Shown: one piece after another, positions 283 through 15,893 of the stretch
Position numbering within the stretch: the stretch's first letter is position 1
Layout of the letters: every line of letters starts with the position of its first letter
From: an uncultured Candidatus Saccharibacteria bacterium
Lineage (GTDB): Bacteria > Patescibacteriota > Saccharimonadia > CAILAD01 > GCA-016700035
Assembly: GCA_964646575.1 (NCBI GenBank)
Contig: CAZYFT010000002.1
Location: forward strand, 4,459 to 68,458
Direction: 5' to 3'
Length of the DNA stretch: 64,000 nucleotides
The notes under the pieces: generated by a model
The model's database searches: none
The model's input: the letters and a program-made list of their open reading frames with translations, nothing else
What the model was told of the DNA's origin: nothing
Translations under genes and position numbers: made by a program

Positions 283-801
283 ATGAAACACGTCGACCCA
301 GCTGCGTTGCCAGTCCAGTTCCGTCGAGATGCGCGAACCACTCGCGAGCTCATCGACCAAGCTGAGCGGCATGCGAAGGCCGGAAAACACGCAGCGGCAC
401 TCCAGGCGTACAAAGACGCCTACCGCGAAAGTCGCCAGCTTCCCGATCGAGATCTCGAGATCGAGATTGCGCTACTCTTGGCACGCTATCAGTTCGAACG
501 CGGCCATCTTGATGCCGCGCAAGACTGGCTGGCCACACACTGCATACTGCTTGTAGATGAGGTTGGCATTCGGGAAGGTGACATAGTCTCAGGCAATGGT
601 ATCACCTTTCACTTTGTCACCACCGCCAGTTTGCACGAGCCTGGCGCCGAGACAATCAAGGTATACCGTGATTTCTCAGACACCTGGAAGAACCCCTTCG
701 TACTCGAAGCGATGGCCGACGAGGTCCATCCGTTCGGCGCGCAATTTCTGCCAGCAAAGGAACTGCTGCTCGCCATTCGCACCGCCTCCACCCCAGAGTG
801 A
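283..801 (+). CDS. hypothetical protein (high-GC island gene)
   Basis: 172-aa ORF with high GC. Preceded by a TATTGTAAAAT extended -10-like motif and followed by a hairpin terminator. No recognisable catalytic motif. Confidence 0.5.
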   Translation: MKHVDPAALPVQFRRDARTTRELIDQAERHAKAGKHAAALQAYKDAYRESRQLPDRDLEIEIALLLARYQFERGHLDAAQDWLATHCILLVDEVGIREGDIVSGNGITFHFVTTASLHEPGAETIKVYRDFSDTWKNPFVLEAMADEVHPFGAQFLPAKELLLAIRTASTPE

Positions 802-817
802 TCTGGGGTGTTTATTT
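791..817 (+). terminator. intrinsic terminator (CCCCAGA-GTGA-TCTGGGG then T-rich)
   Basis: Perfect 7-bp stem overlapping the stop codon, followed by TGTTTATTT. Confidence 0.5.
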
Positions 818-880
818 ACATACTTAAATTATTATTGTAAAATATCATCTATTCGTACCTACTAGTGAATCGAGAAAACC

Positions 881-1558
881 ATGGACAGATATCTGGAGGC
901 CTTCGACGCCGCCGAGCAGGCACGCATCCAGGGCAACAGTGAAGAGGCAGTCGAGCTGTATGCCGAAGCTTCGAGTCTGGCAAAAGAGAGCTCCTCTGCA
1001 GATCTCGTCGCCCTCCACCACATGTGGGGAGTGACCCTGACCAGCCTGGGGCTGACCGACGAGGCGCTCGGCCATCTCAACATGGCACTCTCCCGAGCAA
1101 ACGCCGCGAATGACTTCAAGCTCTGTGCCGTAATCGACCGAGATATGGCCCGAGCTAATCTCATGGGAGAGAACCCCGGTGTGGCGCTTGATTTGATTGT
1201 TTGTTCTCTCTTCCATACTCCACAGGAAGATCTTGCTGAGCGTGGAGCCAGCATCGGAGTAAAGGCTCGCATCTTGTTTGCACTAGGTCGACACCAAGAA
1301 GCTCTCGAGCTGTTCGGGACTGCCGATGCGCTTCTTCAGCGCTCCGAGAACCGCCACTACGAGCTCTACAATCTCCTGCATTTCATGGAGACCGTCATCG
1401 AACACTGCGATATCTACGGCGGTGATGATGGAGCTCGCAACTTCCTGCAGAACCAGTGGAGAAGACTGCGTGCGCTCGCCGTCAGCCATGGTGGGCGCCA
1501 CCACCGCGAGCAAGCTGAAAGGATCGCTACAGACATCTTCGCGGATGTCGAGGGCTAA
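881..1558 (+). CDS. TPR-like repeat hypothetical protein (high-GC)
   Basis: 225-aa ORF. Helical Ala/Leu-rich repeat pattern typical of TPR. Own promoter-like TTGTAAAAT upstream and a strong terminator downstream. Confidence 0.5.
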   Translation: MDRYLEAFDAAEQARIQGNSEEAVELYAEASSLAKESSSADLVALHHMWGVTLTSLGLTDEALGHLNMALSRANAANDFKLCAVIDRDMARANLMGENPGVALDLIVCSLFHTPQEDLAERGASIGVKARILFALGRHQEALELFGTADALLQRSENRHYELYNLLHFMETVIEHCDIYGGDDGARNFLQNQWRRLRALAVSHGGRHHREQAERIATDIFADVEG

Positions 1559-1568
1559 TTCCTCTCCA

Positions 1569-1596
1569 CCCCGAGCTAATGCTCGGGGTATTTTTA
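1569..1596 (+). terminator. rho-independent terminator CCCCGAGC-TAAT-GCTCGGGG + TATTTTTAT
   Basis: Perfect 8-bp stem with a 4-nt loop and a T-run, seen directly in the sequence. Confidence 0.65.
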
Positions 1597-1648
1597 TACT
1601 AAAAAGAGCCCCAAAATGAGGCTCCTTTTAGGTTTGGCGATGTAGTCG

Positions 1649-3552
<1,904 letters not shown>

Positions 3553-3690: not shown

Positions 3691-3725
3691 AAAAACGCCC
3701 AGTCATACTCGACTGGGCGAAAAAA
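3691..3725 (-). terminator. intrinsic terminator CGCCCAGTC-ATACTC-GACTGGGCG flanked by A/T runs
   Basis: Perfect 9-bp stem directly after the stop of the 3726..4562 gene, followed by a T-run on the minus strand. Confidence 0.6.
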
Positions 3726-4562
3726 CTACATGGTGGACTGGAGTGTATGCGCCAGCTCGCGGCCCTTCTCGATGGCTAGCTGCCAATCACGCTGCATGGC
3801 CTGCGCTACCATTCGATCACCCCCCATGTAGTCCCCAGGGAAGATCGGCTCCATCACTATCGCGACAGCGCAGTAGCGGCGCAGAAAACGCGTTCGTCGC
3901 TTTTCATCAGCCTTACCTACTCCGTAGATAGCCAAGGGCACCAGCGGAACACCAGCTCGAATCGCGGCGTACATCGCACCCAGCTTGGCCTCGGAAAGAT
4001 CGTCATCATCACGGCGCGTACCTTGCGGATACAGCACCACGGGCTGACCGCGACGCAAGGCAGAATTCAGCACGTCTTTCATCTCGTACTTGGTATAGAC
4101 GACCTTTTGGTACTGCGGCCGCTTGATCCAATCCACATCACGCATGAAAGGCACACAGCCCATGATCTGATTGATCCACTTCAACCAGCCCCAGCGCACG
4201 AAGTCGGGCTTCGAGGGCCAGGCCATCGGCCGACGGATCAGACCGGTGAGCGGAATGTCGAGAACATGCTGATGGTTGGGCGCCACCACAAATGGGTAGT
4301 CACTCACCTTTCCGCTGTCTCGCCGGCGATATCGCGTCGGGTAGTAGTTGGGTTCGGGCTGCGGCAAGTTGTGTAGGCAGGCAATCTCGCCCTTCATACG
4401 AGTAGCAGCCGCCAGCAGAATCAACCGACGGAACACTCGGTAGCCGAACCACGGACCAATTCCATTGGCCGACTTGAGGCCGCGCAAACGCTTGGCATCT
4501 TCCTCGGGCGTCAGAGCTGGGTAGTCGGACTTCGATGGCCTATCACTGGAATTATCCACCAT
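3726..4562 (-). CDS. PlsC-family lysophospholipid/1-acylglycerol-3-phosphate acyltransferase (high-GC)
   Basis: NHQHVLD (HX4D acyltransferase motif) and a YPQGTR (PEGTR-like) block. GC is far above the window average. Confidence 0.7.
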   Translation of the reverse strand: MVDNSSDRPSKSDYPALTPEEDAKRLRGLKSANGIGPWFGYRVFRRLILLAAATRMKGEIACLHNLPQPEPNYYPTRYRRRDSGKVSDYPFVVAPNHQHVLDIPLTGLIRRPMAWPSKPDFVRWGWLKWINQIMGCVPFMRDVDWIKRPQYQKVVYTKYEMKDVLNSALRRGQPVVLYPQGTRRDDDDLSEAKLGAMYAAIRAGVPLVPLAIYGVGKADEKRRTRFLRRYCAVAIVMEPIFPGDYMGGDRMVAQAMQRDWQLAIEKGRELAHTLQSTM

Positions 4563-4635
4563 GATGCAACCCTTCCTTTTGATAGGTGCTAGGACTGCGC
4601 GGTATCGTACCAGAAAATCAACAGAATGTCATGAG

Positions 4636-4664
4636 TAAAAAAGAAACCCCCACCGAAGTGGGGG
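4636..4664 (-). terminator. intrinsic terminator CCCCCAC-TTCG-GTGGGGG + T-run
   Basis: Hairpin followed by a T-tract on the minus strand, just after the stop of the 4696..6465 gene. Confidence 0.55.
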
Positions 4665-4695
4665 CCGAGAGAGGACCGAAGCCCTCCCCCGAAAA

Positions 4696-6465
4696 TTACG
4701 AACCTGCAGCCGCGCGGCGACTGCGATCCTCGGCATTGAGCCGAGCCAGTTCGTCGATGGTCGCATCCAAGCGAGCCTGGAGCTCGACATCGGTGAGTCC
4801 GTCGAGTTCGCCACTCGCACCGGGGCTTTCGCCACCCGTGGGATTGGAACCCGAACTGCCACTCGAAGCCGAGCCGTCGTAGAGGACACGCCCCATCTCG
4901 CCACCGTTGAGCTCCACCGCCTGGTCCAGCTGACCGGGACGGATGGTGAGCAAATAGCGAGGCTGACCTGATCGGACCGCGAAGGCCGACCAGTTGCCGT
5001 CAGCAGAGGGAATGAACTCCTGCAGCTCGCCCTCCTGCCCCTTGTTGAGGAAGGAGGAATCGATGCGGGCGAGGACGTCCCGAGCACGACGCTCGAGATC
5101 CTGCTCGGTGAGCAGCCCCTTGTCTTCCTCGTGGTGGACCTGCACGCGCATGGGGTTGAACTCCCCATACGTGACCGAACCACTCTCGACCAGCGAGAGT
5201 GCCATGATGGTCTCCGCGCGGGACTGACGAGGCGTCAGAGGGGTGGCGTAGTAAGCGCGCTCATCCAGGGCGGAACGCAGGACGTACTCCGAGGAGTTAC
5301 CCTTGTTCGCACCCAAATTCACTGGATCGAAACCGAAGCCATTGGCCTGCCACTTGCGTCCGGCACCCCAATTGATCATCTCGCGCTGCTGCGCGGCGAT
5401 GCTGATGGGGTACACGGGGCCTTCGAGCTCACCGATCTTGACCGAGCGCTTGTACTCGACCTGCGGCTCACCCGATTGACTCCCTCGGACCACGACAACG
5501 CCAGCGGGAACTTCCACGCTGCGTCCACCGAACCACCGATCCATCTTGACCGGCAGCACGATGGTGGGCACGTTGCCTTCGGCGCAGTAACCGTACGCGT
5601 CGGACAGGGTCCAGAACACGTTCGGAACCTTCTGTCGCACCTGATCCGAGAGACTGTTGGCGTACTCGCCGGTGAGAGCGTAGTTGAGCTCGTTCTCACC
5701 TTCGAATCGACACTGGTAGATCTTCTCGGGGTCGCCATTCCACTCGACGATGGAGTCGATGTGAATACGCTTACCCGAGCCATCACGGATGGTCGTCCAG
5801 CGGCCAGTGCCGTCTTCGGCTGGCAAGTAGGCGTAAGTCTCGTCCAGGACATCAGCCCTGGAGTCACCGGTCGCCCGCTCCGACATCACCTTCTGCGCGC
5901 CCACCAACGATGCGGGGCGTGCGTCGAAGCCCTTCTCGAGGTACTCGATGGGGGTGACGTCGATCTTCACCTGCGGGTCGTGCGACCCGTTGATGCGCTC
6001 CAGGATCAGCGGTTGCTTCTTCTGGGAGGCATACTGGATGGTGATCGACGGAGTGATGGCCCGCGGGGTCAGCTTGGCGTCCAGCGTGAAGGACACGAGG
6101 AGCAACACAGCGGCACAGACCCCGGCGATGACCGCGAGGATACTGTTGAACATGCGACCACGGTTGAAAGCGGTCACCTCATCAGCATCGATCTCGCTGT
6201 TGAAGCCGTAGCGATTGCTCGGGATGGAGTCGTAGCTCCAGTAGGCCGCGATGGCGAAACTGAAGCCAGCCACGATGAGCCAGAACACCTGTCCGCTACG
6301 CGAGCCGACCGACAACATCAAACGCTGTGCGCGCTCAACGCTGTAGCCCGCTTGAGGCCACAGTGAGCCGATCAACTTGGCGATGATGAACCAGAGGCCC
6401 GAGATCACCGCGAAGACACTGACGAACAGGCCGAAGCCCAGCCAGAGCGGCTTGAGTTTCTTCAT
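4696..6465 (-). CDS. polytopic membrane protein of unknown function (high-GC), Ser/Gly-rich C-terminal tail
   Basis: 589 aa. The N-terminus has several hydrophobic helices, followed by a large soluble domain and an SGSSGSNPTGGESPG low-complexity tail. Long high-GC ORF. Confidence 0.6.
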   Translation of the reverse strand: MKKLKPLWLGFGLFVSVFAVISGLWFIIAKLIGSLWPQAGYSVERAQRLMLSVGSRSGQVFWLIVAGFSFAIAAYWSYDSIPSNRYGFNSEIDADEVTAFNRGRMFNSILAVIAGVCAAVLLLVSFTLDAKLTPRAITPSITIQYASQKKQPLILERINGSHDPQVKIDVTPIEYLEKGFDARPASLVGAQKVMSERATGDSRADVLDETYAYLPAEDGTGRWTTIRDGSGKRIHIDSIVEWNGDPEKIYQCRFEGENELNYALTGEYANSLSDQVRQKVPNVFWTLSDAYGYCAEGNVPTIVLPVKMDRWFGGRSVEVPAGVVVVRGSQSGEPQVEYKRSVKIGELEGPVYPISIAAQQREMINWGAGRKWQANGFGFDPVNLGANKGNSSEYVLRSALDERAYYATPLTPRQSRAETIMALSLVESGSVTYGEFNPMRVQVHHEEDKGLLTEQDLERRARDVLARIDSSFLNKGQEGELQEFIPSADGNWSAFAVRSGQPRYLLTIRPGQLDQAVELNGGEMGRVLYDGSASSGSSGSNPTGGESPGASGELDGLTDVELQARLDATIDELARLNAEDRSRRAAAGS

Positions 6466-6531
6466 GATTCCCCTTTCAGGGGTAGTAGGTACTTTCCAGC
6501 GAAACGGTCGCTGGCACCGAGAGGGTCATCC

Positions 6532-6576
6532 CCTCATGGTGTGTAACGGGAAGGCATACACCTTCGCACCATGAGG
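6532..6576 (-). promoter_or_regulatory. structured 5' leader: 10-bp perfect inverted repeat CCTCATGGTG...CACCATGAGG
   Basis: Seen in the sequence upstream of the 4696..6465 gene. A second hairpin, CCCCTTTCAGGGG, overlaps the putative SD. Confidence 0.3.
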
Positions 6577-6716
6577 CGATGAAGCCTTCACTAAAAGCAA
6601 CAAAGTATGGAGCTTGTTGCCACCCTGAGCGGTCCCGTTATCCGCTCATCACTCCGTTCGTTCATATCTGTCGTTTTCGGCGCTTGATGAGAGGATAGGT
6701 TTGTCAGGGCAAGTAG

Positions 6717-6774
6717 ACACAAAAATCCCGCTGGCCACGGACCTAAGGCTTAGTCCAGGGCGAAACGGGATTTT
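6717..6774 (-). terminator. intrinsic terminator (AAAATCCCG...CGGGATTTT compound hairpin + T5)
   Basis: 9-bp outer stem with an internal GGAC/GTCC sub-hairpin and a T-run on the minus strand, after the 6853..7911 gene. Confidence 0.5.
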
Positions 6775-6852
6775 CGATACCTATAGCGTATTAAGTTGTA
6801 AGAGTATATTAGCAAATACACACTATTTTGTCAAGAGTTATTGGCAACTTTA

Positions 6853-7911: not shown

Positions 7912-8446
7912 CCGAGGTAGTGATTCTGGACTATCGAGGCCAGTTCACCCTGACAGTAGGAGGAGCGCGCCGGGCACTCACTACTTTCGGTTTTGGACGA
8001 TGTCTGTCCTGCGGGCCACACTGATGCAAGAGTGAATTACGAGTCAAGCTCGGTTTACCTCTGGCTCACCAGTTAAGTTCCTCGCTCACCGTTTTCGTCA
8101 CCCCGGGATCCAGGGTCGTTACGCCAGACCGACTCAAGGCTCTTCTTACCTTGACTAACATTGCTGTCAGCTAAAAGCCAGTCTGGCTAAACGTGATCCT
8201 TGGTGTGCAACTAGGTTTCCCCCTTCGAGACTTCCCGTCAGTTCTTCACCGACGCGTCGAATGATACGAGTTCTCTGTGTGCTCTTCCTGGTTTTCTCAG
8301 GTGCTGCCCGTTAGGGCGGTGCTCGCGACATAACCCCCCTTCAGGTATTACGGGTCGCGGCTGGGGCTCGGATGCCCCTCGGTGCGCCGCTGGCTAGCAG
8401 GGCGCTCTGTTCACCACACAGCGGTCTTACCCGCGTTTGGCGATGC
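7890..8446 (-). ncRNA. long structured ncRNA, central part RNase P RNA-like (candidate rnpB)
   Basis: No ORF over about 560 nt. The promoter at 8452..8480 and the terminator at 7846..7889 bracket it. The minus-strand read shows GGGAAGUCUCG (P4 5' strand, 8226..8233) able to pair with CGAGCUU (8046..8052), including the characteristic bulged U and a compensatory C-to-U/G-to-A change relative to E. coli. GGGGGAAACC, GGUAAGA-GAGC and GGUAAACC blocks occur in the canonical CR order. The P1/P2 helices and exact ends were not resolved. Confidence 0.4.
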
Positions 8447-8451
8447 TTCGT

Positions 8452-8483
8452 ATAGTACCACGTATTGACATCTTTGTCAATAC
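8452..8483 (-). promoter_or_regulatory. sigma70-type promoter TTGACA-17-TACTAT overlapped by perfect palindrome GTATTGACA-TCTT-TGTCAATAC
   Basis: Hexamers and spacing read directly. The 9-bp inverted repeat covers the -35 and could act as an operator or hairpin. Confidence 0.4.
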
Positions 8484-8497: not shown

Positions 8498-9862
8498 TTA
8501 ACTATTTTCTTGAATAAGCGCTTTGATCTCTTTGTGAGCTGCCGCTAAAGCAGTCTTAGTTCTGGCTTCAATATTGAGACGAACTAAAGGCTCGGTGTTA
8601 CTAGGACGAATACTGGCGCGCCAGTCATCGGTGCGGATACATAACCCATCGAGCGTATCAAGTTTGGCGGCACGATAATGTTTCTCGAGAGCGATTAAGA
8701 GCCTTGATGTATCCGCTACATCGAGATTCTCTTCTGGAATACTCTGATATTTTCGATAAGGACGCACCAGTTCCGACAGCGGCTTTTCGGTTTCCGACAT
8801 CACGCCCAGAACCATTACCGCGGTGATCAACGCTGAATCACAGTAAAAATTATCACGAAAGTAAAAATGACCGGAGGCCTCGCAGCCAAAAATTGCGTTA
8901 CGGTCGCGCATCACGGCTTGCATGTAGCTATGACCAACCCGGCTTTGCACTATTTCCCCGCCAAGAGCCTCCACAGTTTCACGCACAATGTCGCCTACCA
9001 CCACGCTCTGCACCACTGTACTCTTGGGGTTTTCACCTAAAAATGTGTGCGCCAGCAGGGCTGCGAGTGCCGCCGCCTCCACCGCTTCGCCTTTTTCGTC
9101 TACAAAGAAGCAACGATCACCATCACCATCAAAAGCGATGCCGCAATCGAGTTCATTTCGCTGTACGAGAGTTTTAAGGTCGTCCATCGCCCCTTCCAGC
9201 ACCGGATTTGCCGGGTGATTTGGGAACGTGCCATCTAGCTCCATATACAAGCCAGATACCTCTAAGCCGGTCAGCTCCTGCAGCTTTGGAATCGGCACCG
9301 AACCCATCCCATTACCAGCATCAACACCTACTTTAAGTGGCTTTAAATCAGTGCCAGCAAAGCGCAATGTGTGCTCCACCCAATCTGTTAGAATGTTTTT
9401 CTCGAGCTTTTTGCCAGGCTCATCCGCCGATGCAAGTTCACCTTTAAGAACCCGTTTTTTCAGGTCATTAAGCCCGCCTTCAGCACTCAATTGCACCACG
9501 CCCGCAGCCGTCAGCTTAATGCCGTTATACTTGCCTGGATTATGGCTGGCGGTAATCATCGCCGCACCAGCTAAATCATACTGCCCGACAGCAAAATAGC
9601 TCATATCCGTCGTAACCATGCCGATATCCAGCACTTCCCTGCCTTGCAAGATAAGTCCGTCTATGAAAGCTGTCGCCAATTCTTCGGAATCCGCGCGCAT
9701 ATCACGACCAACCGCAATCGTACCCTCTGGCATTTCGAGAGCAAACGCCTGAGCAATATCTAGAACCACGTCAGCATTCAGCTCATCGCCAACCACACCC
9801 CGAATATCGTAGGCTCGAAAAATCGCGTCTAAACGCGCGGCGCGCTCGCTTCCCTCACTCAT
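8498..9862 (-). CDS. glmM: phosphohexomutase (phosphoglucosamine mutase / phosphomannomutase family)
   Basis: ITASHNPGKYNGIK active-site serine loop and a GVDAGNGMGS metal-binding block. 454 aa. Confidence 0.8.
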   Translation of the reverse strand: MSEGSERAARLDAIFRAYDIRGVVGDELNADVVLDIAQAFALEMPEGTIAVGRDMRADSEELATAFIDGLILQGREVLDIGMVTTDMSYFAVGQYDLAGAAMITASHNPGKYNGIKLTAAGVVQLSAEGGLNDLKKRVLKGELASADEPGKKLEKNILTDWVEHTLRFAGTDLKPLKVGVDAGNGMGSVPIPKLQELTGLEVSGLYMELDGTFPNHPANPVLEGAMDDLKTLVQRNELDCGIAFDGDGDRCFFVDEKGEAVEAAALAALLAHTFLGENPKSTVVQSVVVGDIVRETVEALGGEIVQSRVGHSYMQAVMRDRNAIFGCEASGHFYFRDNFYCDSALITAVMVLGVMSETEKPLSELVRPYRKYQSIPEENLDVADTSRLLIALEKHYRAAKLDTLDGLCIRTDDWRASIRPSNTEPLVRLNIEARTKTALAAAHKEIKALIQENS

Positions 9863-10084
9863 GGAGCTTATTATAGCTGATTTCGTCTAAAGAGAAACAT
9901 CAGGAGGGCGAACAGTATTGACAATCTAAGCATAAGAAATGTCGATAAGGCCGCATAAAATGCAATTCGCGGCCAAAAACGCCGACGGGGGCGTTATCCC
10001 GGTCACTCATTAACAATGCCTTCCCCTTGATCCAGGGATGCCTAATAAGAGTGAGGATCCAGGGTCACGCTGGAATCGTGACGG

Positions 10085-10118
10085 CCCCCAGTCTTCAGAC
10101 TGGGGGCTTCTTCTTTTT
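10085..10118 (+). terminator. orphan plus-strand intrinsic terminator CCCCCAGTC-TTCA-GACTGGGGG + CTTCTTCTTTTT
   Basis: Perfect 9-bp stem and T-run on the plus strand. There is no plus-strand gene upstream, so it may terminate an unannotated sRNA in 9900..10118. Confidence 0.5.
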
Positions 10119-10119
10119 A

Positions 10120-11187
10120 TTACCAAAAAATATTCTGTTTTAATCGAGAGTAAACCTTATGAAACAACGGCTCTGCCTTCTGCCAACGGCCATACACACC
10201 GGCCTTGAGCGGCAATTCCCAACAGCCAACAAATTGGGTAATTTCCTGATTAAACCCACTCTTAAACTGATACAGCCCATACATATGATGCTCGGGACTC
10301 AACTGATCTTTTGGTGGCACAGCAATGAGGTCATATTCCTTCGCACCGCGCTCGCGAGCCCAGCACATTACTTCATACTGCAATAAATACGGGGCCATTA
10401 AGTTACGCTTAGCTCCACTTGAGCCGCCTTCTTTGTAGTAAGCCTTCTCGCCAAAAATCATGGCGTACTCTGCCGCCAGCACTTCGCCTTCGTGCACGGC
10501 CACAAAAAACTGACCCATTCCGGCCTGCGCAAAGCTCTGCCAGTACGACTTAAATGCATGCTTTGGACGTAAATAAAATCCCGCTCGGCCCTGGGTATCG
10601 CCCATCAGCTTATACATTTCATCAACCATCTCGTCGGTGGCATCACGCTTTTCGATGGTGACACCTTTTTTTGTAGCCAGCCGAATATTATAACGCGTCT
10701 TCTGCTTAAAGCTCGCCAGCAATGCGTCATCATCCTTATTAATATCTACGATGATTGTGGCGCGAAACTGCAAATCATGCACACTCTTCAGGTAGCCTGC
10801 CTGCTTGGGCTTCAGCTCATCATCATAAATCTCGGGCTCTACCATCAGCATAAATGCCTTGGAGTCGTGTTTTTTAATGTATGAAGCCAACTCTTTGGTG
10901 AGCGCCTTAAACGCAGCTAGCTGGGCCTTATCACTTTTGTAGTGCGCGAAGATTCCAGGGCCTTTCGGGATATACCAAATGGTGCCAAAACCTGGTGCAT
11001 TTTTTACTAGCGCCTGAAAGTAGACCCGCTCTTTGCCGCCCTCCCAGGCAAGCCTTTCCGGACGCCAATCATATTGCGCTTTATACTCGCCCCACTCCTG
11101 TGTCTGGTAAATATGGCCGCCATCTGGATTCTCTAAAACCAGCTTATTCCAGGCATCGCGCTCTTCGGGTCCGGCACTTCGTATCAT
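10120..11187 (-). CDS. FemAB-family peptidoglycan interpeptide-bridge aminoacyltransferase
   Basis: FemAB-like length and blocks (GQFFVAVHEGEVLAAEYAM, KEGGSSGAKRNLMAPYLLQYEVMCWA). The start is taken at MIRSAGPEE (11187), with a TATAAT 7 nt upstream, which implies a leaderless or near-leaderless mRNA. Confidence 0.75.
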   Translation of the reverse strand: MIRSAGPEERDAWNKLVLENPDGGHIYQTQEWGEYKAQYDWRPERLAWEGGKERVYFQALVKNAPGFGTIWYIPKGPGIFAHYKSDKAQLAAFKALTKELASYIKKHDSKAFMLMVEPEIYDDELKPKQAGYLKSVHDLQFRATIIVDINKDDDALLASFKQKTRYNIRLATKKGVTIEKRDATDEMVDEMYKLMGDTQGRAGFYLRPKHAFKSYWQSFAQAGMGQFFVAVHEGEVLAAEYAMIFGEKAYYKEGGSSGAKRNLMAPYLLQYEVMCWARERGAKEYDLIAVPPKDQLSPEHHMYGLYQFKSGFNQEITQFVGCWELPLKAGVYGRWQKAEPLFHKVYSRLKQNIFW

Positions 11188-11224
11188 GCCCCGTATTATA
11201 CCGGTTTGACCCCTGTAAGATACA

Positions 11225-11253
11225 TTGACTAAATGATTACTAAGTTGTATTAT
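11225..11253 (+). promoter_or_regulatory. promoter TTGACT-17-TATTAT for the 11285 gene
   Basis: Hexamers and spacing read from the sequence. Divergent from the FemAB gene. Confidence 0.45.
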
Positions 11254-11284
11254 ATGCGAACCTGTACCTACCCAAGAAAGGCTC

Positions 11285-12139
11285 ATGATGACAACTGTCA
11301 GCATGGAAAAGTTCCTGTCCAGCTATCCCACTCCACGAGACGCACTCGACGCGCTCGGTCTCGGCGATCTACTCGATCTGGTCGATACCGTCGATGTGCT
11401 CGAAGACTCTTCCTCTGCAGACAGACTGGCAGAGTCTCTGACTATCGCTAAAAGCGAACATGGCATTCGCGATATGTGGGCCTGGCTGCAACGAAACTTC
11501 GGGCTATCCCACAGCCGTGTCAATCAGATCATCGCTCGCAAGCCAGTTGTACACCTTCAGCATCATCTCCGACACGTCACGGCACCGAACCTACGACCAG
11601 GCTATCGCTTCGATCAGTTGCTTTTCGTCTGGGAAATTCTACGTGATGTACCTGAAGGGTTCCTGTACGGCGATAACTTCCAGATCATGCGCGAACGTTT
11701 CGACTCGACTCTTCAGCAGTACCTGGAAGATGCCGTGACTCCTGAGTTGTTCTGGCTGTGCTTCCACGCCAGCCAAGACGAGCTCCTCCAGGATGTACCG
11801 CGCAAGCAGGCTGCTACACATGCTCGACGTGTTCTCGAAGGATACACAGAGTCACTAGAGAAACTCTGGCTTCTTGATCCGCTACAGCAAGAGCCCACCT
11901 CCATCTGGGACCACACCCTTGAGGACGCAGACACACCGGCAGAGGACGTCGACGACGACTCTGATGTCGCCAATGATCTGGAACCACTCGACGTGAGCCT
12001 GACCGAAGGTCCGTTCGACGATGAAGACGACTCGACAAGTGGCGGACCGATCAGCGCCGAAGCCATGGACAACGAAGATGCCTTCGAAGTGTCTATTCGG
12101 AAGCATTACGGCAAGCAAGCCGCCGATCTGCTCTTCTAG
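11285..12139 (+). CDS. acidic hypothetical protein (high-GC island gene)
   Basis: 284 aa, Asp/Glu-rich C-terminus, no recognised motif. Followed by a strong terminator. Confidence 0.5.
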   Translation: MMTTVSMEKFLSSYPTPRDALDALGLGDLLDLVDTVDVLEDSSSADRLAESLTIAKSEHGIRDMWAWLQRNFGLSHSRVNQIIARKPVVHLQHHLRHVTAPNLRPGYRFDQLLFVWEILRDVPEGFLYGDNFQIMRERFDSTLQQYLEDAVTPELFWLCFHASQDELLQDVPRKQAATHARRVLEGYTESLEKLWLLDPLQQEPTSIWDHTLEDADTPAEDVDDDSDVANDLEPLDVSLTEGPFDDEDDSTSGGPISAEAMDNEDAFEVSIRKHYGKQAADLLF

Positions 12140-12146
12140 AGCACCT

Positions 12147-12179
12147 GCCCCGACCATCACCGGTCGGGGTAATTCTTTA
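12147..12179 (+). terminator. intrinsic terminator CCCCGACC-loop-GGTCGGGG + T-rich
   Basis: 8-bp perfect stem, then TAATTCTTTAC. Confidence 0.6.
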
Positions 12180-12204
12180 CTAAGCGCAAATAAAATTGTA
12201 TAAT
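12175..12204 (+). promoter_or_regulatory. extended -10 promoter (TTTACT-17-TGTATAAT) sharing ATAAAATTGTATAAT with the promoter at 13756
   Basis: Read directly. An identical 15-mer occurs upstream of another high-GC gene. Confidence 0.5.
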
Positions 12205-12239
12205 GTGTACATTATTGTACCCTGACCGAAACGAGCAGC

Positions 12240-12725
12240 ATGTCCGACCAAGACTACTGGATCCGTTCCATTCGCTGTGGAGTTGGTTCCAGCCACCGAA
12301 TCTTCGAAGACAGTCGCGCCATCCAGCAGGCAGTCTTCGTCGAAGAGCAAGGCATCGATCCAGATGACGTCTTCGAGCACGAGCACGAAGGCATCCACTT
12401 CGTGCTCTACCTGAAGGTCGACGACCAATTCATCGCCGTGGCCTGTGCCCGAGTGATGGGCAGCAAGCTCCGGCACCCCATCAAGATCGGCCGCGTTGCA
12501 ACCCTGAAGCAGCATCGTCACAACAAGTACGCGCGCCGCCTCCTGGAACACATCATCGATGAACAGGGTCAGCGCTACGAACCTCCCTACTTCTACCTGA
12601 ACTCGCAGGTGGATGCCCGGGGGCTGTACGAAAGCCTGCAGTTCCGCCCGAAAGGCGAGATGTTCAACGAAGCTGGAATCCGACACATCCGCATGGAACT
12701 GCCGTGGCCAACCGAAGCCGCCTAG
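12240..12725 (+). CDS. GNAT-family N-acetyltransferase (high-GC)
   Basis: 161 aa. The R-x-x-G/A-x-A-like acetyl-CoA binding region (RVATLKQHRHNKYARRLLEHI) fits the GNAT fold. Confidence 0.65.
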   Translation: MSDQDYWIRSIRCGVGSSHRIFEDSRAIQQAVFVEEQGIDPDDVFEHEHEGIHFVLYLKVDDQFIAVACARVMGSKLRHPIKIGRVATLKQHRHNKYARRLLEHIIDEQGQRYEPPYFYLNSQVDARGLYESLQFRPKGEMFNEAGIRHIRMELPWPTEAA

Positions 12726-12731
12726 TTCCCG

Positions 12732-12760
12732 CCCTCGCCACGTGCGAGGGTCTTTTTATT
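12732..12760 (+). terminator. intrinsic terminator CCCTCGC-CACGT-GCGAGGG + TCTTTTTATT
   Basis: Perfect 7-bp stem and T-run. Confidence 0.6.
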
Positions 12761-13718
12761 CTAAGCCGCGCAACTTACGATAAACCTGATAAGCCCGATA
12801 CTTCGTCTTTTTTATAGGAATATCCCACGTACCGAGCGTTGTAACACGCTCACCACCAAAGCCCTTTTTAAAGGCCGTAATCCCTGCCCACTTATGGTCG
12901 GCTGAATCATCTGGCGCCGCACCCCAAAAATCAAACTTCGTGAGCCCCGCAGCTTTAGCATCTGTAATCATTTTCCAAACTGCCGAAACCGCCACTTTAT
13001 ACTCTCGATTCAGTGCCTGATCATTGCCAGTATGCGCATACGAGCGCGTATCACCCCAGTCATACACCAGACTGACGCTGGCTACTTTTCCGGCCACGGT
13101 CGAAACGTAAAAACTCGCAACTCCTTTACCTATGAGTGTTTCCGCGAGATGGCGGTAATAACTATCCGGATAATTCGTGATATGTGCATGCGCGGCGGTA
13201 TCTGCCATGAGGCGCAAAAAATCGTCCATAGGCGACATATCTTGCACTTGTCGAATGACGATACCGCGTTTTTCGGTAGTATTGACTCGGTTGCGGTGAC
13301 CAGATTGTAAGCCGTGTCGTAAATCTTCTTCCGGCTGGGAAATATCCAGAACAAATGTGTGCTGAGGATCTACCTCGGTGATCTTGCGCGCACCCGCAGC
13401 TCGCAAATCGGCTTCTGTAACTGCACCAATCGGCTCTATGCGGACAAAATCTACTTCCTGCTCCTCAGCCGAAAAAACTATCGAGCGCAGTGCCTCTGCG
13501 GCATTCTTCTGCACCACTGGGCCATACGGCAAAATAAGATAACGCAAGCCCTTTGAGCTACGCATAAAACCCTGCCAAGCCCACTCGCCTGCTGAACTAG
13601 CCCGCACGGCTTCACGCCCAACAATCTCCTGGAATTCTGCCCAGGCGGTACTTTGCAAAATGCCACCGCCTAACTGCGCAATCTGCGTATCCCAAACGGT
13701 TGGCTCAAAGTTAGTCAT
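12756..13718 (-). CDS. FemAB-family aminoacyltransferase (second paralog)
   Basis: Start at MTNFEPTVWD. The C-terminal GITAFKKGFGGERV block is typical of the FemAB family. Confidence 0.75.
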   Translation of the reverse strand: MTNFEPTVWDTQIAQLGGGILQSTAWAEFQEIVGREAVRASSAGEWAWQGFMRSSKGLRYLILPYGPVVQKNAAEALRSIVFSAEEQEVDFVRIEPIGAVTEADLRAAGARKITEVDPQHTFVLDISQPEEDLRHGLQSGHRNRVNTTEKRGIVIRQVQDMSPMDDFLRLMADTAAHAHITNYPDSYYRHLAETLIGKGVASFYVSTVAGKVASVSLVYDWGDTRSYAHTGNDQALNREYKVAVSAVWKMITDAKAAGLTKFDFWGAAPDDSADHKWAGITAFKKGFGGERVTTLGTWDIPIKKTKYRAYQVYRKLRGLE

Positions 13719-13755
13719 GACTCTTATTGTATACCAATCATGGAGCCAGTATGCA

Positions 13756-13784
13756 TTGCTAAAAAAGACATAAAATTGTATAAT
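13756..13784 (+). promoter_or_regulatory. promoter TTGCTA-17-TATAAT with extended TG
   Basis: Read directly. Shares a 15-mer with the promoter at 12175. Confidence 0.5.
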
Positions 13785-13804
13785 ACAGCAATTCTCGCAC
13801 CTCA

Positions 13805-14104
13805 ATGAAAGGTTTCGACATGGGTGGACTCAGTCCCAACCTCACACCGGATGCCGATGCGCCGAACATCTTCTGGACCGACGGCAGCGGCAGACCGATC
13901 GACAAAGGCAACCCAACCAAGAAGGGCTACGTCCCAGGCCGCTACGACCCGTACAACGACCGGTTCGACCCTGATGTCTTCGACACAAGCATGGTGGTAG
14001 CTCTAACGCTCGCCAGCATCGCGCTGGTCGTCGGCATCATCGGCGCCATCGCGGCAGTGCCGATCACCATCGTGCGTCGCCTCCGTCGGAGGAAGTCATC
14101 ATGA
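13805..14104 (+). CDS. small high-GC protein with C-terminal transmembrane helix and basic tail
   Basis: 99 aa. Hydrophobic stretch VVALTLASIALVVGIIGAIAAVPITIV followed by RRLRRRK. Confidence 0.4.
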   Translation: MKGFDMGGLSPNLTPDADAPNIFWTDGSGRPIDKGNPTKKGYVPGRYDPYNDRFDPDVFDTSMVVALTLASIALVVGIIGAIAAVPITIVRRLRRRKSS

Positions 14105-14170: not shown

Positions 14171-14794
14171 TTATACTGCAAGTGCAGCATAATTTGAAAG
14201 TTCGGCAACCGACATGCGCAACGCGAGCGATGTGCGCGGCTGGCCGTTGAGTGGTGGACGCACCCTATGTCGAATACGCGGATCGCTCCCCCGCCCAGGT
14301 GCGCAACCCAGCAGTACCATTACACTACCAGCCTGCACTCGCCAAGAAACAACTCGGCCATGCAACTCAACATCAATCACCGATTCGCCTGCCAACGTAT
14401 AGACTACCACCAAGTACACATCTTGCTTATAATCCCGATGCCAGCCAATCATGTCCCAGGGCTTGACGTAACGCTGCATCGCAACATCATTCACCCGCCA
14501 TTCGCGCAACCACACTGGGCCGCCACGTGCATGAATCGCACATGCAACCGATTCGGTCCGTTCCACCAGCCACTCCAAAGCTTCTGGCAGTGGTTTGGCA
14601 AAATGATGTGTTGCAAATGACTGATACACGCCGCTCGACCGTGGTCGATGGACATCAGCCTTATCGCAGAGCTGTAATAGTTCATCGCACGTCACTGCTG
14701 TAAGTATCACCGGATACACAGCGCAGCCCTGAAACATCGCCGTGAGAACGGCCGAATACAGGCGCTCCCAATCAATCTCCAGCCGGTACTTCAT
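14171..14794 (-). CDS. Fe(II)/2-oxoglutarate dioxygenase, AlkB-like (putative alkylation repair)
   Basis: IGWHRDYKQ (HxD), a distal HGR/RIRH His and an RTSLALR (RxxxxxR) block resemble AlkB. AGGAGAG RBS upstream. Confidence 0.5.
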   Translation of the reverse strand: MKYRLEIDWERLYSAVLTAMFQGCAVYPVILTAVTCDELLQLCDKADVHRPRSSGVYQSFATHHFAKPLPEALEWLVERTESVACAIHARGGPVWLREWRVNDVAMQRYVKPWDMIGWHRDYKQDVYLVVVYTLAGESVIDVELHGRVVSWRVQAGSVMVLLGCAPGRGSDPRIRHRVRPPLNGQPRTSLALRMSVAELSNYAALAV

Positions 14795-15026
14795 CCGCCT
14801 CTCCTTTCAGGAAACTGCCAAAGAGCTCCTGATCTCTTACATCATGGCAGCGCTCGTGTGCCAAGTAGTTGACACTCTGGACGCCATTGCGGAAAAGCAC
14901 CGTTGCAACTACGCGCTGACGCACCTGCACCAAGTGATGGCAGTGCTCACAGAAATGGCCATGCGCCAGAGAAAATCGGCAGGACCATTCGCCTCGAAAA
15001 TCGTGACCGACAAGACACAACGCCAT
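14772..15026 (-). CDS. small Cys/His-rich protein (putative zinc-binding), overlaps the AlkB-like start
   Basis: 84 aa containing HGHFCEHCHH, with a strong AAGGGAGG SD 5 nt upstream. Preferred over the overlapping plus-strand ORF 14742..15206, which runs through a terminator hairpin. Confidence 0.3.
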   Translation of the reverse strand: MALCLVGHDFRGEWSCRFSLAHGHFCEHCHHLVQVRQRVVATVLFRNGVQSVNYLAHERCHDVRDQELFGSFLKGEADEVPAGD

Positions 15027-15060
15027 TGTTGCCTCCCTTTTTGTAGGTACACCCGGATCA

Positions 15061-15088
15061 AAAAACTGCCCGGGCGGGCAGTTTTCTT
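15061..15088 (-). terminator. bidirectional hairpin CTGCCC-GGGC-GGGCAG with flanking A5/T4
   Basis: Perfect 6-bp GC stem, with A/T runs on both sides. Confidence 0.45.
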
Positions 15089-15265
15089 GGTTTACATTAG
15101 TTCAGTGAGGACTTTCAAAAACGCTGGCCGCTCGGTCAGTTTAGGCTATAGTCCGGCATGGACGACCAGGTTGTGTGGCGTTTTGAAAGTAACATTAGCT
15201 TTATGATAACAAATGCGAACATAAAAGAAAACCGCACCCGAATAATCGGATGCGGGGAGTACTAC

Positions 15266-15706
15266 TCAGCAGAACTGAGCCGGATTAAGAGCAGTGAGAA
15301 CAATGCGCGCCTGAATGGTTACCGCAGTCACAATCGTGCGCGTCGGCAAACGTGCATGCGAGATGGGCGTAAACGCCACTTGCCCAACATGCAGACGGGA
15401 TTCGCATACACCACCTCGGGCCTGCGTCTGAATATCCACAGCTCCAGACACGACCAAAACCGCATGATGACCAAGAAAGTGCTGTGGCAAAACCAGCTCA
15501 CCGCCATTTTCCAGGGTGAATTCTTCGACGAAGTTGAAATCATGCTTACAGAGAGGCTGTTCGCGAAGCAACCTCTCGGGTCGAGTGGCGACAGCTTGCA
15601 GGCGCATAGGCGACATTGTGACTTTCTCCACAACGTGCAAGGAGCCAACGAAAGCCGCAAAGACCTTTGGATCTCGGTTTTGTACGAAGCTAGGTGTACG
15701 AGTCAT
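15266..15706 (-). CDS. hypothetical protein, possibly cupin-like (moderately high GC)
   Basis: 146 aa, beta-rich with a His-containing stretch (HFLGHHAVLVVSGAV). The cupin motif match is incomplete. GGAG RBS upstream. Confidence 0.3.
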   Translation of the reverse strand: MTRTPSFVQNRDPKVFAAFVGSLHVVEKVTMSPMRLQAVATRPERLLREQPLCKHDFNFVEEFTLENGGELVLPQHFLGHHAVLVVSGAVDIQTQARGGVCESRLHVGQVAFTPISHARLPTRTIVTAVTIQARIVLTALNPAQFC

Positions 15707-15893
15707 TACTGCTCCAATGTTAGAAGTACAAAAAGCGCTCAGATAAGATCAAAAAGACCGCCTGAGCAGTCAATTTTGCAAGTTTCTAGTCGCTAGTTAG
15801 CGCAAACCTGGCCGCTCGTGCCGTCGAGTGCCATAAAAATACCAAGTGTTTGCGTTGCGTAATTGCATGATGGCCTGTATTATTCCATAGATT

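What the first reader, a model, noticed from the sequence alone, without database searches (positions are those of the whole stretch)
283..15800. Multiple high-GC single-gene islands, each with host-style promoter and its own terminator
Genes at 283..801, 881..1558, 3726..4562, 4696..6465, 11285..12139, 12240..12725, 13805..14104 and 14171..15706 (plus 53379..54590) are roughly 58-62% GC against ~45-50% for neighbouring housekeeping genes. Nearly every one is preceded by an AT-rich extended -10 promoter of the local type (TnTTGTAwAAT) and followed by a perfect GC-stem intrinsic terminator. Functions include an acyltransferase, a GNAT, an AlkB-like dioxygenase, a cupin-like protein and membrane proteins, which resembles an accessory tool-kit. 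The pattern suggests repeated gene-by-gene acquisition from a high-GC donor, with regulatory regions adapted while coding GC is retained.
Basis: partly seen in the sequence, partly recalled or inferred. Interest (0 to 1): 0.7.

Follow-up and report, generated by a model that had tools for sequence, protein, structure and literature searches.

The report
Old GC-rich genes in a Saccharibacteria genome
The GC-rich single genes scattered among housekeeping genes of this tiny epibiotic bacterium (Saccharibacteria/TM7) are real, but they are long-resident genes kept in the same places, and kept GC-rich, in distant relatives, so they are not recent imports, although one of them belongs to a family otherwise found only in the host phylum Actinomycetes.

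Summary
Eight of the ten named genes have third-codon-position GC (GC3) of 0.60-0.79, against 0.44 +/- 0.055 for 48 other genes in the window (z 3.0-6.3). Most are single-gene units with a sigma-70-like promoter and a strong GC-stem terminator.

Three details are wrong or unconfirmed:
- "14171..15706" is two ORFs plus a 470-nt gap, and both ORFs are only mildly GC-rich.
- The exact promoter motif is found before four genes only.
- Promoters and terminators of this kind are just as common around low-GC genes.

The interpretation, recent gene-by-gene import with donor GC retained, is largely not supported. The organism is a Saccharimonadia (TM7) bacterium. The 589-aa, acyltransferase, TPR, GNAT, oxygenase and LGFP genes sit at the same positions in relatives whose synonymous sites are saturated, and their orthologues there are GC3-rich too. 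Closest homologues are other Saccharimonadia. Recent GC-to-AT and AT-to-GC changes in the 589-aa gene are balanced (6:7), so it is not decaying towards host composition.

Best reading: an old, fast-evolving, vertically inherited gene class whose GC-richness is actively maintained, possibly by recombination-linked biased gene conversion. A conserved unannotated RNA leader lies upstream of the 589-aa gene.

The parts
283..801 (+). 172-aa protein with weak TPR matches; GC 57.6 %, GC3 .62. Its own promoter is at 221-249 and its terminator at 789-810.
881..1558 (+). 225-aa TPR protein (weak NsdA-like match); GC 57.5 %, GC3 .64. Promoter at 815-843, terminator at 1568-1589. Syntenic orthologues lie next to groEL in L011, L037 and L038.
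1649..3552 (-). groES-groEL operon, a low-GC3 (.37 / .50) housekeeping backbone gene pair used as the reference.
3726..4562 (-). PlsC-type acyltransferase (PF01553, HQHVLD motif), 278 aa; GC 58.3 %, GC3 .69. Promoter-like site at 4632..4604, terminator at 3719..3696.
4696..6465 (-). 589-aa membrane-anchored protein with no Pfam match; GC 62.0 %, GC3 .79. The family is restricted to Saccharimonadia and Actinomycetes. Terminator at 4666..4645.
6720..6834 (-). Promoter (TTGACA-17-TAATAT) followed by a conserved roughly 85-nt RNA element. It has an invariant GCUAUAGGUAUCGA stretch, a three-tier hairpin with an invariant AAGCCUUA loop, and a U-run. This is the start of the structured 335-nt leader of the 589-aa gene.
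11285..12139 (+). 284-aa acidic protein with no family match; GC 55.0 %, GC3 .60. Promoter at 11225-11253, terminator at 12146-12171.
12240..12725 (+). ElaA-like GNAT acetyltransferase, 161 aa; GC 58.6 %, GC3 .75, with ordinary GC2. Promoter at 12176-12204, terminator at 12731-12751.
13805..14104 (+). 99-aa protein with a C-terminal transmembrane helix; GC 60.7 %, GC3 .76. Promoter at 13756-13784.
14171..14794 (-). 207-aa 2OG-Fe(II) oxygenase-fold protein, prolyl-hydroxylase/AlkB-like; only mildly GC-rich (54.5 %, GC3 .53).
15266..15706 (-). 146-aa protein of unknown family; GC 53.5 %, GC3 .53. Terminator at 15255..15232.
53379..54590 (-). 403-aa secreted LGFP-repeat + NlpC/P60 cell-wall hydrolase; GC 57.8 %, GC3 .63, GC2 .53. 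Terminator at 53371..53352. Syntenic with L035.
8498..13805 (-). Backbone housekeeping genes pgm/glmM-like (8498-9862), femAB (10120-11187 or 11304) and femAB (12756-13718 or 13805); GC3 .47-.54. The + strand GC-rich genes sit between them.

Best explanation
The window comes from a Saccharimonadia (Saccharibacteria/TM7) genome. The flagged genes are not fresh islands. They are an old, vertically inherited class of fast-evolving, lineage-restricted genes, mostly envelope, cell-wall or lipid modifiers plus small regulators. Each is a monocistronic unit with a sigma-70-type promoter, an ORF and an intrinsic terminator. Each sits in a fixed slot between strongly conserved housekeeping genes (tsaD, femAB x2, pgm, groESL; and GT4/VanW near dnaA).

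Shown:
- The genes keep the same positions in relatives.
- Their orthologues there are GC3-rich.
- This holds beyond synonymous-site saturation.
- Recent GC/AT substitutions are balanced.
- The GC shift is uniform across all codon families.

Their GC-richness is therefore a stable, gene-specific state that some continuing force maintains. It is not a leftover of a donor genome.

Inferred: the force is most likely GC-biased fixation linked to frequent homologous recombination at these rapidly diversifying genes, in a naturally competent lineage. Selection on the mRNA is the alternative.

Origins are mixed. The 589-aa family was probably exchanged with Actinomycetes, the host phylum, before this clade radiated. 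The others show no detectable donor.
For: Organism:
- Relatives are named Candidatus Saccharibacteria or Saccharimonadia MAGs.

Synteny:
- The order tsaD / femAB / GNAT / 284-aa slot / femAB / pgm / NTase-like / 589-aa / acyltransferase / groES-EL / TPR recurs in L007, L011, L013, L037 and L038.
- GH5-GT4-LGFP-VanW...dnaA recurs in L035.

GC3 of orthologues:
- The 589-aa gene is .64-.83 in 10 relatives, against groEL .44-.61 in the same loci.
- The acyltransferase and TPR orthologues are likewise raised.

Saturation:
- Four-fold-site identity between the window and L011 or L013 is .31-.39, against .28-.32 expected at random.

No decay:
- Polarised S>W : W>S counts are 6:7 in the 589-aa gene. 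The ratio expected if it followed the groEL substitution regime is 3.5:1 (p = .012).
- groEL itself gives 21:21.

Uniform shift:
- Every synonymous family moves to G/C endings. Phe goes .30 to .88, Ile .29 to .77 and Lys .43 to .83. This fits a general GC pressure and not tRNA-specific selection.

Fast evolution:
- GroEL is 96 % identical to L007, the 589-aa protein 83 % and the acyltransferase 70 %.
- Spearman correlation of identity against GC3 is -0.64 (p = .008) across 16 genes.

Recombination at the locus:
- Against strain L071, nucleotide identity is 88.0 % (NTase-like gene), 95.3 % (leader), 99.0 % (589-aa), 96.5 % (acyltransferase) and 96.2 % (groEL).
- In L072, 13 of 14 SNPs over 16.8 kb fall in 130 bp of the 589-aa gene.

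Actinomycete link:
-.

Not an assembly artefact:
- Six independently assembled contigs are 100 % identical over this region.
Against: - The maintaining force is not demonstrated.
- Reported bacterial gBGC effects are small (my own knowledge), whereas the GC3 excess here is .2-.35.
- The NTase-like gene also shows a recombination signature but has ordinary GC3 (.49).
- The substitution counts are small (13 and 21 sites) and were polarised with a rather distant outgroup.
- The SNP cluster in L072 lies at a contig end and could be an assembly effect.
- Only about 20 kb per relative was compared, not whole genomes.
- The 172-aa, 284-aa, 99-aa and 146-aa proteins have no sequence-detectable orthologue in the sampled relatives. 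Their age rests only on positional equivalence (a GC-rich gene in the same slot in L011 and L013).
- Slot content does turn over. L013 has three other genes, and L011 a 932-aa gene, between the 589-aa gene and groES. Some gain and loss therefore does occur.
Confidence: 0.6

Rival explanations
1. Each gene was acquired separately and fairly recently from a high-GC donor such as the actinobacterial host. It picked up a local promoter and terminator but still carries the donor's coding GC.
For: - The genes are real GC and GC3 outliers.
- Lys is depleted, and Arg and Trp are enriched, as in high-GC proteomes.
- The 589-aa family is shared only with Actinomycetes.
- The TPR protein gives a weak NsdA-like match.
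- The LGFP repeat is typical of Actinobacteria (plus my own knowledge).
- Transfer from Actinomycetota to Saccharimonadia has been reported in activated sludge (bioRxiv 10.64898/2026.09.16.751625).
- The content of the slots varies among relatives.
Against: - Orthologues occupy the same positions in relatives diverged past synonymous saturation, and they stay GC-rich there.
- Nearest homologues are Saccharimonadia. Identity to Actinomycetes is only 27-36 %.
- GNAT and the acyltransferase have non-actinobacterial nearest outgroups.
- S>W and W>S substitutions are balanced.
- No mobility genes, tRNAs or flanking repeats are present.
- The promoter and terminator style is genome-wide.
Confidence: 0.08
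2. Passive relic of ancient transfer. Most of these genes entered the clade's ancestor from Actinomycetes, and their GC is simply ameliorating very slowly.
For: - The 589-aa family has an actinomycete distribution, and Saccharimonadia sequences fall in at least two places in the tree.
- The amino-acid composition is of the GC-rich type.
- GC3 of orthologues (.64-.83) is lower than in the Actinomycete homologues (.88-.98).
Against: - Four-fold sites are saturated among lineages, so any inherited signal at synonymous sites should be gone.
- There is no excess of GC-to-AT changes in the 589-aa gene.
- GNAT has high GC3 but ordinary GC2, and its relatives are low-GC organisms.
Confidence: 0.1
3. 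Expression- or constraint-linked codon usage. The GC-rich genes show the genome's unconstrained composition. Conserved, highly expressed housekeeping genes are held at A/T-ending codons by translational selection.
For: - There is a gradient from groES (.37) through groEL, pgm and femAB (.47-.54) to the fast-evolving genes (.60-.79).
- Protein conservation and GC3 are negatively correlated (rho -0.64).
- Core and accessory genes generally differ in codon usage (PMC7374057, listed).
Against: - Many poorly conserved or accessory genes elsewhere in the window have low GC3 (.36-.50). These include the T4SS cluster at 29.6-44.3 kb and AHSA1, DUF1697, HxlR and glyoxalase at 57-64 kb.
- Intergenic DNA is 47-48 % GC, not GC-rich.
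- The shift affects all codon families equally.
Confidence: 0.15
4. Artefact. The pattern comes from chimeric metagenome assembly, contaminating high-GC DNA, spurious ORFs, or amino-acid composition alone.
For: - For the LGFP gene much of the excess lies in GC2 (.53). Its orthologue is also GC-richer than its neighbours in a 38 %-GC relative.
- The 207-aa and 146-aa genes are barely outliers.
Against: - The identical sequence was assembled independently in six or more datasets.
- Synteny is conserved in relatives.
- The proteins have conserved homologues, and one gives a confident fold.
- GC3 z-scores are 3-6 for eight genes.
Confidence: 0.02

Closest known systems
Horizontally acquired genomic islets recognised by atypical composition (Lawrence-Ochman amelioration framework; my own knowledge)
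   Same: - Coding GC and GC3 are far from the genome mean.
- The genes have accessory-type functions.
- Each is its own transcription unit.
   Different: - The genes are not sporadic among relatives and carry no mobility signatures.
- The composition does not decay. It persists in orthologues beyond synonymous saturation, and recent substitutions are balanced.
Actinomycetota-to-Saccharimonadia gene transfer between host and epibiont (bioRxiv 10.64898/2026.09.16.751625, read)
   Same: - The same two phyla are involved.
- One gene family here (589 aa) is shared only between them.
   Different: - The reported events are recent (>90-99 % nucleotide identity) and have recombinases nearby.
- Here identity is 27-36 % at protein level, the gene predates the clade's radiation, and there are no recombinases.
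GC-biased gene conversion raising GC3 of recombining bacterial genes (Lassalle et al. 2015; my own knowledge, not checked here)
   Same: - The GC3 rise is uniform across all codon families.
- It occurs in genes that show strain-level recombination mosaics.
   Different: - The effect here (+.2 to +.35 in GC3) is much larger than usually described.
- The link to recombination rests on one locus.
Core versus accessory stratification of codon usage in prokaryotes (PMC7374057, title and abstract seen)
   Same: Conserved genes and lineage-specific genes use different synonymous codons.
   Different: - Only a subset of the accessory genes is affected, and it is shifted towards GC.
- Other accessory genes in the same window are at or below the genome mean.

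Membership tests
Classical horizontally acquired genomic island or islet | Composition atypical for the genome | tested here: met
   GC3 z = 3.0-6.3 for 8 genes against 48 background genes.
Classical horizontally acquired genomic island or islet | Patchy presence among close relatives, or a different genomic location | tested here: not met
   The 589-aa, acyltransferase, TPR225, GNAT, 207-aa and LGFP genes are syntenic in relatives down to 79-86 % GroEL identity. Four small genes could not be traced by sequence.
Classical horizontally acquired genomic island or islet | Mobility signatures at the borders (integrase or transposase, tRNA target, flanking direct repeats) | tested here: not met
   There are no tRNAs in 1-17 kb, no integrase or transposase Pfam matches and only chance-level short direct repeats.
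Classical horizontally acquired genomic island or islet | Closest homologues in a distant taxon of matching composition | tested here: not met
   Closest homologues are Saccharimonadia with loci of about 50-55 % GC. Only the 589-aa family has distant actinomycete members, at 27-36 % identity.
Recent host-to-epibiont HGT (Actinomycetota to Saccharimonadia) | High nucleotide identity (>90 %) to an actinobacterial sequence | tested here: not met
   The best actinomycete matches are 27-36 % at protein level.
Recent host-to-epibiont HGT (Actinomycetota to Saccharimonadia) | Recipient sequences nested within donor diversity in a supported tree | tested here: inconclusive
   In the NJ tree, Saccharimonadia sequences fall in two or three places among Actinomycetes. 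Frankia + L022 has 84 % support, but the deep nodes have only 55-60 %.
   H119, D121 and R187 are invariant and H176 is nearly invariant across 15 homologues.
   The AF2 model has pLDDT 93. Foldseek against the PDB gives 4j25 prolyl-4-hydroxylase at E 1e-9 with TM .66-.73. PHD2 and ABH2/3 give TM .52-.68.
   13.8 bits against a cut-off of 23, E = .074. The protein is a sequence-divergent member.
PlsC-type acyltransferase (PF01553) | Pfam match above the cut-off and an H(X)4D motif | tested here: met
   63.4 bits against a cut-off of 23. HQHVLD is present in the translation. The NCBIfam equivalogs are all far below their cut-offs.
GNAT acetyltransferase | Pfam GNAT domains above the cut-off | tested here: met
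   PF13673 47.7 bits, PF13508 32.0 bits and PF00583 32.0 bits. The ElaA-like model PRK10314 is below its equivalog cut-off.
LGFP-repeat / NlpC-P60 cell-wall hydrolase | LGFP repeat and NlpC/P60 domain | tested here: inconclusive
   LGFP scores 28.1 bits against a cut-off of 22, which is met. NlpC/P60 scores 22.5 against 23, just below. There is also a match to the PHROG endolysin family, E 1e-8.
Cupin superfamily (146-aa protein) | Any sequence match to a cupin family | tested here: not met
   No Pfam match at E <= 5, no NCBIfam match and no meaningful PDB sequence match. The fold was not modelled.
Intrinsic terminator / sigma-70 promoter unit | GC stem of at least 8 bp plus a T-run directly after the stop codon; a -35 hexamer, 17 nt, then a -10 hexamer upstream | tested here: met
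   Terminators follow 8 of the 10 genes and promoter-like sites precede 7 of the 10. These are consensus matches only, and transcription was not tested.

The most novel reading that the evidence does not exclude
Saccharimonadia keep a distinct, actively maintained GC3-rich 'codon dialect' for a set of fast-evolving envelope and host-interface genes. Part of this set is anciently shared with their actinomycete hosts. A subset, the 589-aa family and small membrane/lipoprotein pairs, is preceded by a conserved, previously undescribed RNA leader. This leader has an invariant GCUAUAGGUAUCGA stretch and a terminator hairpin with an invariant AAGCCUUA loop. The composition would then mark a functional gene class shaped by recombination-driven GC-biased fixation or by mRNA-level selection. 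It would not mark foreign DNA.
Probability: 0.25. Interest if true: 0.65.

Novelty: new variant of a known kind. Interest (0 to 1): 0.42.

Why it matters
Atypical GC is routinely taken as evidence of recent horizontal transfer, and in epibiotic Saccharibacteria it has been used to guess hosts. Here the strongest compositional outliers are old, syntenic and compositionally stationary. GC-based calls of HGT, or of contamination, in these reduced genomes would therefore be misleading.

If the GC-rich state is maintained by recombination or selection at host-interface genes, it offers a cheap sequence marker for the genes that matter for the epibiotic lifestyle. It would also be an unusually strong bacterial case for testing biased gene conversion.

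The family shared only between Actinomycetes and Saccharimonadia, and the conserved RNA leader upstream of it, are concrete handles for experiments in the cultivable, genetically tractable Saccharibacteria.

Tried and rejected
- A concatenated 1133-aa query of six proteins in the search for homologous proteins returned nothing, because the word pre-filter was swamped. That search was wasted.
- The listing of cluster members gave no names or taxonomy for the window proteins or for the representative hits.
- The 589-aa protein gave no solved-structure relative with a 16-sequence profile at E <= 1. It gave only sub-threshold Pfam noise (DUF6197, E .07). Its AF2 model had pLDDT 50.5 and was too poor to search with.
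- The afdb50 library was unavailable, so structure hits could not supply taxonomy.
- tblastn of all ten flagged proteins against phages matched only the GNAT.
- The PHROG scan matched only the GNAT and the LGFP protein, so there is no sign of prophage origin.
- Gene neighbourhoods of the actinomycete 589-aa homologues share nothing, so they give no functional clue. The Pseudarthrobacter plasmid context was uninformative.
- The four very GC-rich genes just outside the window have no Pfam match and no plasmid match.
- Rfam found nothing in 1-17.5 kb even at E <= 1.
- I considered a T-box reading of the second leader segment (a GGGUGGCAAC-like stretch overlapping a terminator). I dropped it because the motif is not conserved in the more distant copies and the downstream genes are not amino-acid genes.
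- The two TPR genes are not detectable paralogues, despite near-identical promoters.
- Strain L072 was too close (99.9 %) for per-gene divergence analysis.

Full report
WHAT THE WINDOW IS

The window is 48.4 % GC. It carries the following:
- groES-groEL, a phosphoglucomutase-family gene, two femAB genes, tsaD and valS.
- A type IV secretion cluster with four T4SS-pilin paralogues, PrgI and a VirB4/TraG-like ATPase.
- The dnaA-dnaN-recF region at the GC-skew minimum.

A scan of species-representative genomes with the 589-aa family returned relatives titled Candidatus Saccharibacteria, Saccharimonadia or Patescibacteria MAGs. Homologues of the LGFP protein are also named Candidatus Saccharibacteria. 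The organism is therefore a Saccharimonadia (TM7) epibiont. Contigs that are 100 % identical over 1-16.5 kb were assembled independently from six datasets. The mosaic is therefore not an assembly artefact.

CHECKING THE OBSERVATION

I measured GC and GC3 per ORF. Forty-eight non-flagged genes have GC3 .441 +/- .055, with a maximum of .574. Eight flagged genes are strong outliers, and the set as a whole gives Mann-Whitney p = 6e-7:

| Gene | GC3 | z |
|---|---|---|
| 283-801 | .62 | 3.3 |
| 881-1558 | .64 | 3.7 |
| 3726-4562(-) | .69 | 4.5 |
| 4696-6465(-) | .79 | 6.3 |
| 11285-12139 | .60 | 3.0 |
| 12240-12725 | .75 | 5.7 |
| 13805-14104 | .76 | 5.8 |
| 53379-54590(-) | .63 | 3.5 |

The interval 14171..15706 is not one gene, because it contains six stops. 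It holds a 207-aa ORF and a 146-aa ORF with 470 nt between them. Both are only mildly elevated (GC3 .53).

On promoters and terminators:
- The promoter motif as written is exact twice and off by one mismatch twice. Its total count in the window is at chance level.
- A general TTGACA-like hexamer, 17 nt, then TAnnnT arrangement precedes seven of the ten genes.
- GC-stem terminators directly follow eight of the ten genes.
- The same promoter type precedes groES, and terminators are as enriched in the low-GC 44-64 kb stretch (38 against 19.4) as in 1-17 kb (27 against 15.8).
- This is therefore how the genome is organised generally. It is not an adaptation peculiar to these genes.

On functions:
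- PF01553 acyltransferase and GNAT are confirmed.
- The 207-aa protein has an invariant HxD...H...R motif, a pLDDT-93 model and a 2OG-oxygenase fold. The fold is closest to bacterial prolyl-4-hydroxylase, then PHD2 and ABH2/3.
- The 'cupin-like' protein has no detectable family.
- The 403-aa protein combines LGFP repeats with an NlpC/P60-like domain.

ARE THEY RECENT IMPORTS?

The most GC-rich gene (589 aa) has only 16 detectable homologues in 5.8 billion clusters. I fetched the contigs that encode homologues at 83 %, 61 % and 56 % identity. All show the same neighbourhood: tsaD, femAB, GNAT, femAB, pgm, an NTase-like gene, the 589-aa gene, groES-groEL, a TPR gene. tblastn confirms orthologues of the 589-aa, acyltransferase, TPR225, GNAT and 207-aa proteins in those loci.

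An exhaustive phmmer search found only small families for the acyltransferase, TPR225 and 207-aa proteins. A 52 % TPR homologue and a 45 % acyltransferase homologue again lie beside groESL and pgm in two further relatives. The LGFP gene lies in a fully conserved GH5-GT4-LGFP-VanW-Jag-YidC-RnpA-DnaA block in a relative at 54 % identity.

In every one of these genomes the orthologue is GC3-richer than its housekeeping neighbours. The 589-aa gene is .64-.83, against groEL .44-.61. TPR is .62-.75 and the acyltransferase .53-.64.

RELIC OR MAINTAINED?

- Saturation. At four-fold sites under identical amino acids, the window and L011 or L013 are .31-.39 identical in the 589-aa gene. Random expectation is .28-.32. 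Synonymous sites have therefore turned over completely, yet GC4 stays at .62-.76.
- Substitution direction. I compared a 95 %-identical strain (L071) and polarised the changes with L007. This gives S>W: W>S of 6:7 in the 589-aa gene, 14:7 in the acyltransferase and 21:21 in groEL. If the 589-aa gene followed the groEL substitution regime, about 3.5:1 would be expected (binomial p = .012).
- Codon families. The GC shift is present in every synonymous family (Phe .30 to .88, Ile .29 to .77, Lys .43 to .83). It comes with Lys depletion and Arg/Trp enrichment.
- Baseline. Intergenic DNA is 47-48 % GC. Many non-conserved accessory genes elsewhere in the window have GC3 of .36-.50.

The GC-rich state is therefore neither the neutral baseline nor a general property of accessory genes. 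It looks like a stationary, gene-specific state.

THE LINK WITH ACTINOMYCETES

Outside Saccharimonadia, the 589-aa family was found only in these places:
- Frankia
- Actinocorallia
- six Actinomadura
- two Spirillospora
- two Kineosporia

By tblastn against 72,556 plasmids it was found only on Pseudarthrobacter and Curtobacterium plasmids. In an NJ tree the window's clade is monophyletic, and its branching order largely follows groEL identity. Two other Saccharimonadia sequences group with Frankia at 84 % support. The deep nodes are weak.

This fits one or more ancient exchanges between the two phyla. The direction of transfer is not established. The actinomycete genes have no conserved neighbourhood.

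GNAT hits ElaA-like genes of Firmicutes, Acinetobacter and an archaeon. The acyltransferase hits Bacillus and Subdoligranulum. Their nearest representative-library relatives have an amino-acid make-up of moderate or low GC type. Neither gene has an actinobacterial signal.

WHAT MAINTAINS THE GC?

This is not shown. The genes evolve fast. GroEL is 96 % identical to L007, the 589-aa protein 83 % and the acyltransferase 70 %. Across 16 genes rho is -0.64.

The 589-aa locus shows a recombination mosaic between close strains. Nucleotide identity is 88.0 % (NTase-like gene), 95.3 % (leader), 99.0 % (589-aa), 96.5 % (acyltransferase) and 96.2 % (groEL). In a 99.9 %-identical strain, 13 of 14 SNPs lie within 130 bp of the 589-aa gene, although at a contig end.

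Saccharibacteria are naturally competent (abstract of PMC10187176). I therefore favour GC-biased fixation tied to recombination at these genes. I hold this with modest confidence, for two reasons. The effect is very large for gBGC, and the NTase-like gene shows recombination without a GC rise.

BY-PRODUCTS

1. The promoter at 6834..6806 does not sit directly before the 589-aa ORF. It starts a 335-nt, highly structured leader (z = -6.85).
   - The first 85 nt or so are the most conserved sequence in the region. They comprise an invariant GCUAUAGGUAUCGA stretch, a three-tier hairpin with an invariant AAGCCUUA loop, and a U-run.
   - The element is present in all main-clade relatives, twice in L013, and in 14 further metagenome contigs.
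   - Twenty distinct variants fold alike, with many compensatory stem changes.
   - Rfam has no match.
   - Downstream there is always a GC3-rich envelope gene: the 589-aa family, a 170-aa single-TM protein plus a lipoprotein, or an ABC ATPase.
2. Window 7855-8446(-) is a 592-nt non-coding stretch. It has its own promoter and terminator and strong predicted structure (z = -5.4).

VERDICT

The compositional mosaic is real and statistically strong. What remains of interest is the following:
- A conserved, apparently maintained GC-rich gene class in a reduced epibiont genome.
- One gene family shared only with the host phylum.
- An undescribed RNA leader.

Interest is moderate (0.42). Novelty is a new variant of a known kind.

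Noticed in passing
window 6720-6834 (- strand); leader continues to 6466: A conserved, unannotated RNA element downstream of a perfect TTGACA-17-TAATAT promoter. It has an invariant GCUAUAGGUAUCGA stretch, then a three-tier terminator-like hairpin with an invariant AAGCCUUA loop and a U-run. It occurs in all main-clade relatives (two copies in L013) and in 14 more metagenome contigs. Twenty variants show compensatory stem changes. Rfam gives no hit. It always lies upstream of a GC3-rich envelope-protein gene. It is a candidate new sRNA, attenuator or riboswitch.
   Followed up: partly
window 7855-8480 (- strand): A roughly 590-nt stretch with no ORF, 55 % GC. It has its own promoter (8480..8452) and a 12-bp terminator (7890..7861). 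Predicted structure is z = -5.4 against shuffles. It has no Rfam hit and is not conserved by blastn in the relatives sampled. It may be a large non-coding RNA.
   Followed up: partly
L001 17422-19955 (just upstream of window position 1; same genome): Four more genes at 65-68 % GC (GC3 .86-.89), the extreme of the same phenomenon. They are conserved in position and in GC-richness in L007, L011 and L037. They have no Pfam match and no plasmid match.
   Followed up: partly
window 4696-7803 compared with L071; window 5950-6079 compared with L072: A strain-level mosaic. Against a 95 %-identical strain, the NTase-like gene is 88.0 % identical, the 589-aa gene 99.0 % and groEL 96.2 %. The 589-aa gene has 10 non-synonymous against 7 synonymous codon differences. 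In a 99.9 % strain, 13 of 14 SNPs cluster in 130 bp of the 589-aa gene, at that contig's end.
   Followed up: partly
window 29594-44335: A type IV secretion-like cluster. It comprises four T4SS-pilin paralogues, a PrgI-family protein, a VirB4/TraG-like ATPase, a 1138-aa protein with a VanY domain, and a 636-aa protein with GDSL lipase, phage-tail lysozyme and M23 peptidase domains. All have low GC3 (.39-.50).
   Followed up: no
window 45416-49388: recF-dnaN-dnaA on the - strand coincide with the minimum of cumulative GC skew (about 46-47 kb). This is the likely replication origin. rnpA, yidC and jag follow on the + strand.
   Followed up: no
window 23942-24015 and 24196-24273: Two members of the tRNA cluster are reported by ARAGORN with four-base anticodons (ctta, gaaa). 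Rfam scores them as tRNAs at 53.8 and 43.2 bits. They may have unusual anticodon loops or be mis-called.
   Followed up: no
window 53379-54590 (-): The LGFP + NlpC/P60 protein also matches a PHROG endolysin family through its LGFP region. LGFP repeats are typical of Actinobacteria cell-envelope proteins (my own knowledge). This may therefore be a hydrolase aimed at the host cell wall.
   Followed up: partly
window 14795-15265: A 470-nt gap between the 207-aa and 146-aa genes with no convincing ORF. Other pipelines call an 84-aa ORF here. There is only a faint tblastx similarity to L011.
   Followed up: no
window 44350-45419: Two genes with unusually low GC (36-38 %) and no Pfam match. They are compositional outliers in the opposite direction.
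   Followed up: no
L013 6792-7067: In one relative an IS200-like Y1 transposase fragment sits in the femAB-pgm intergenic slot. In L013 and L011 other genes replace the acyltransferase between the 589-aa gene and groES. The slots between backbone genes do gain and lose content.
   Followed up: no
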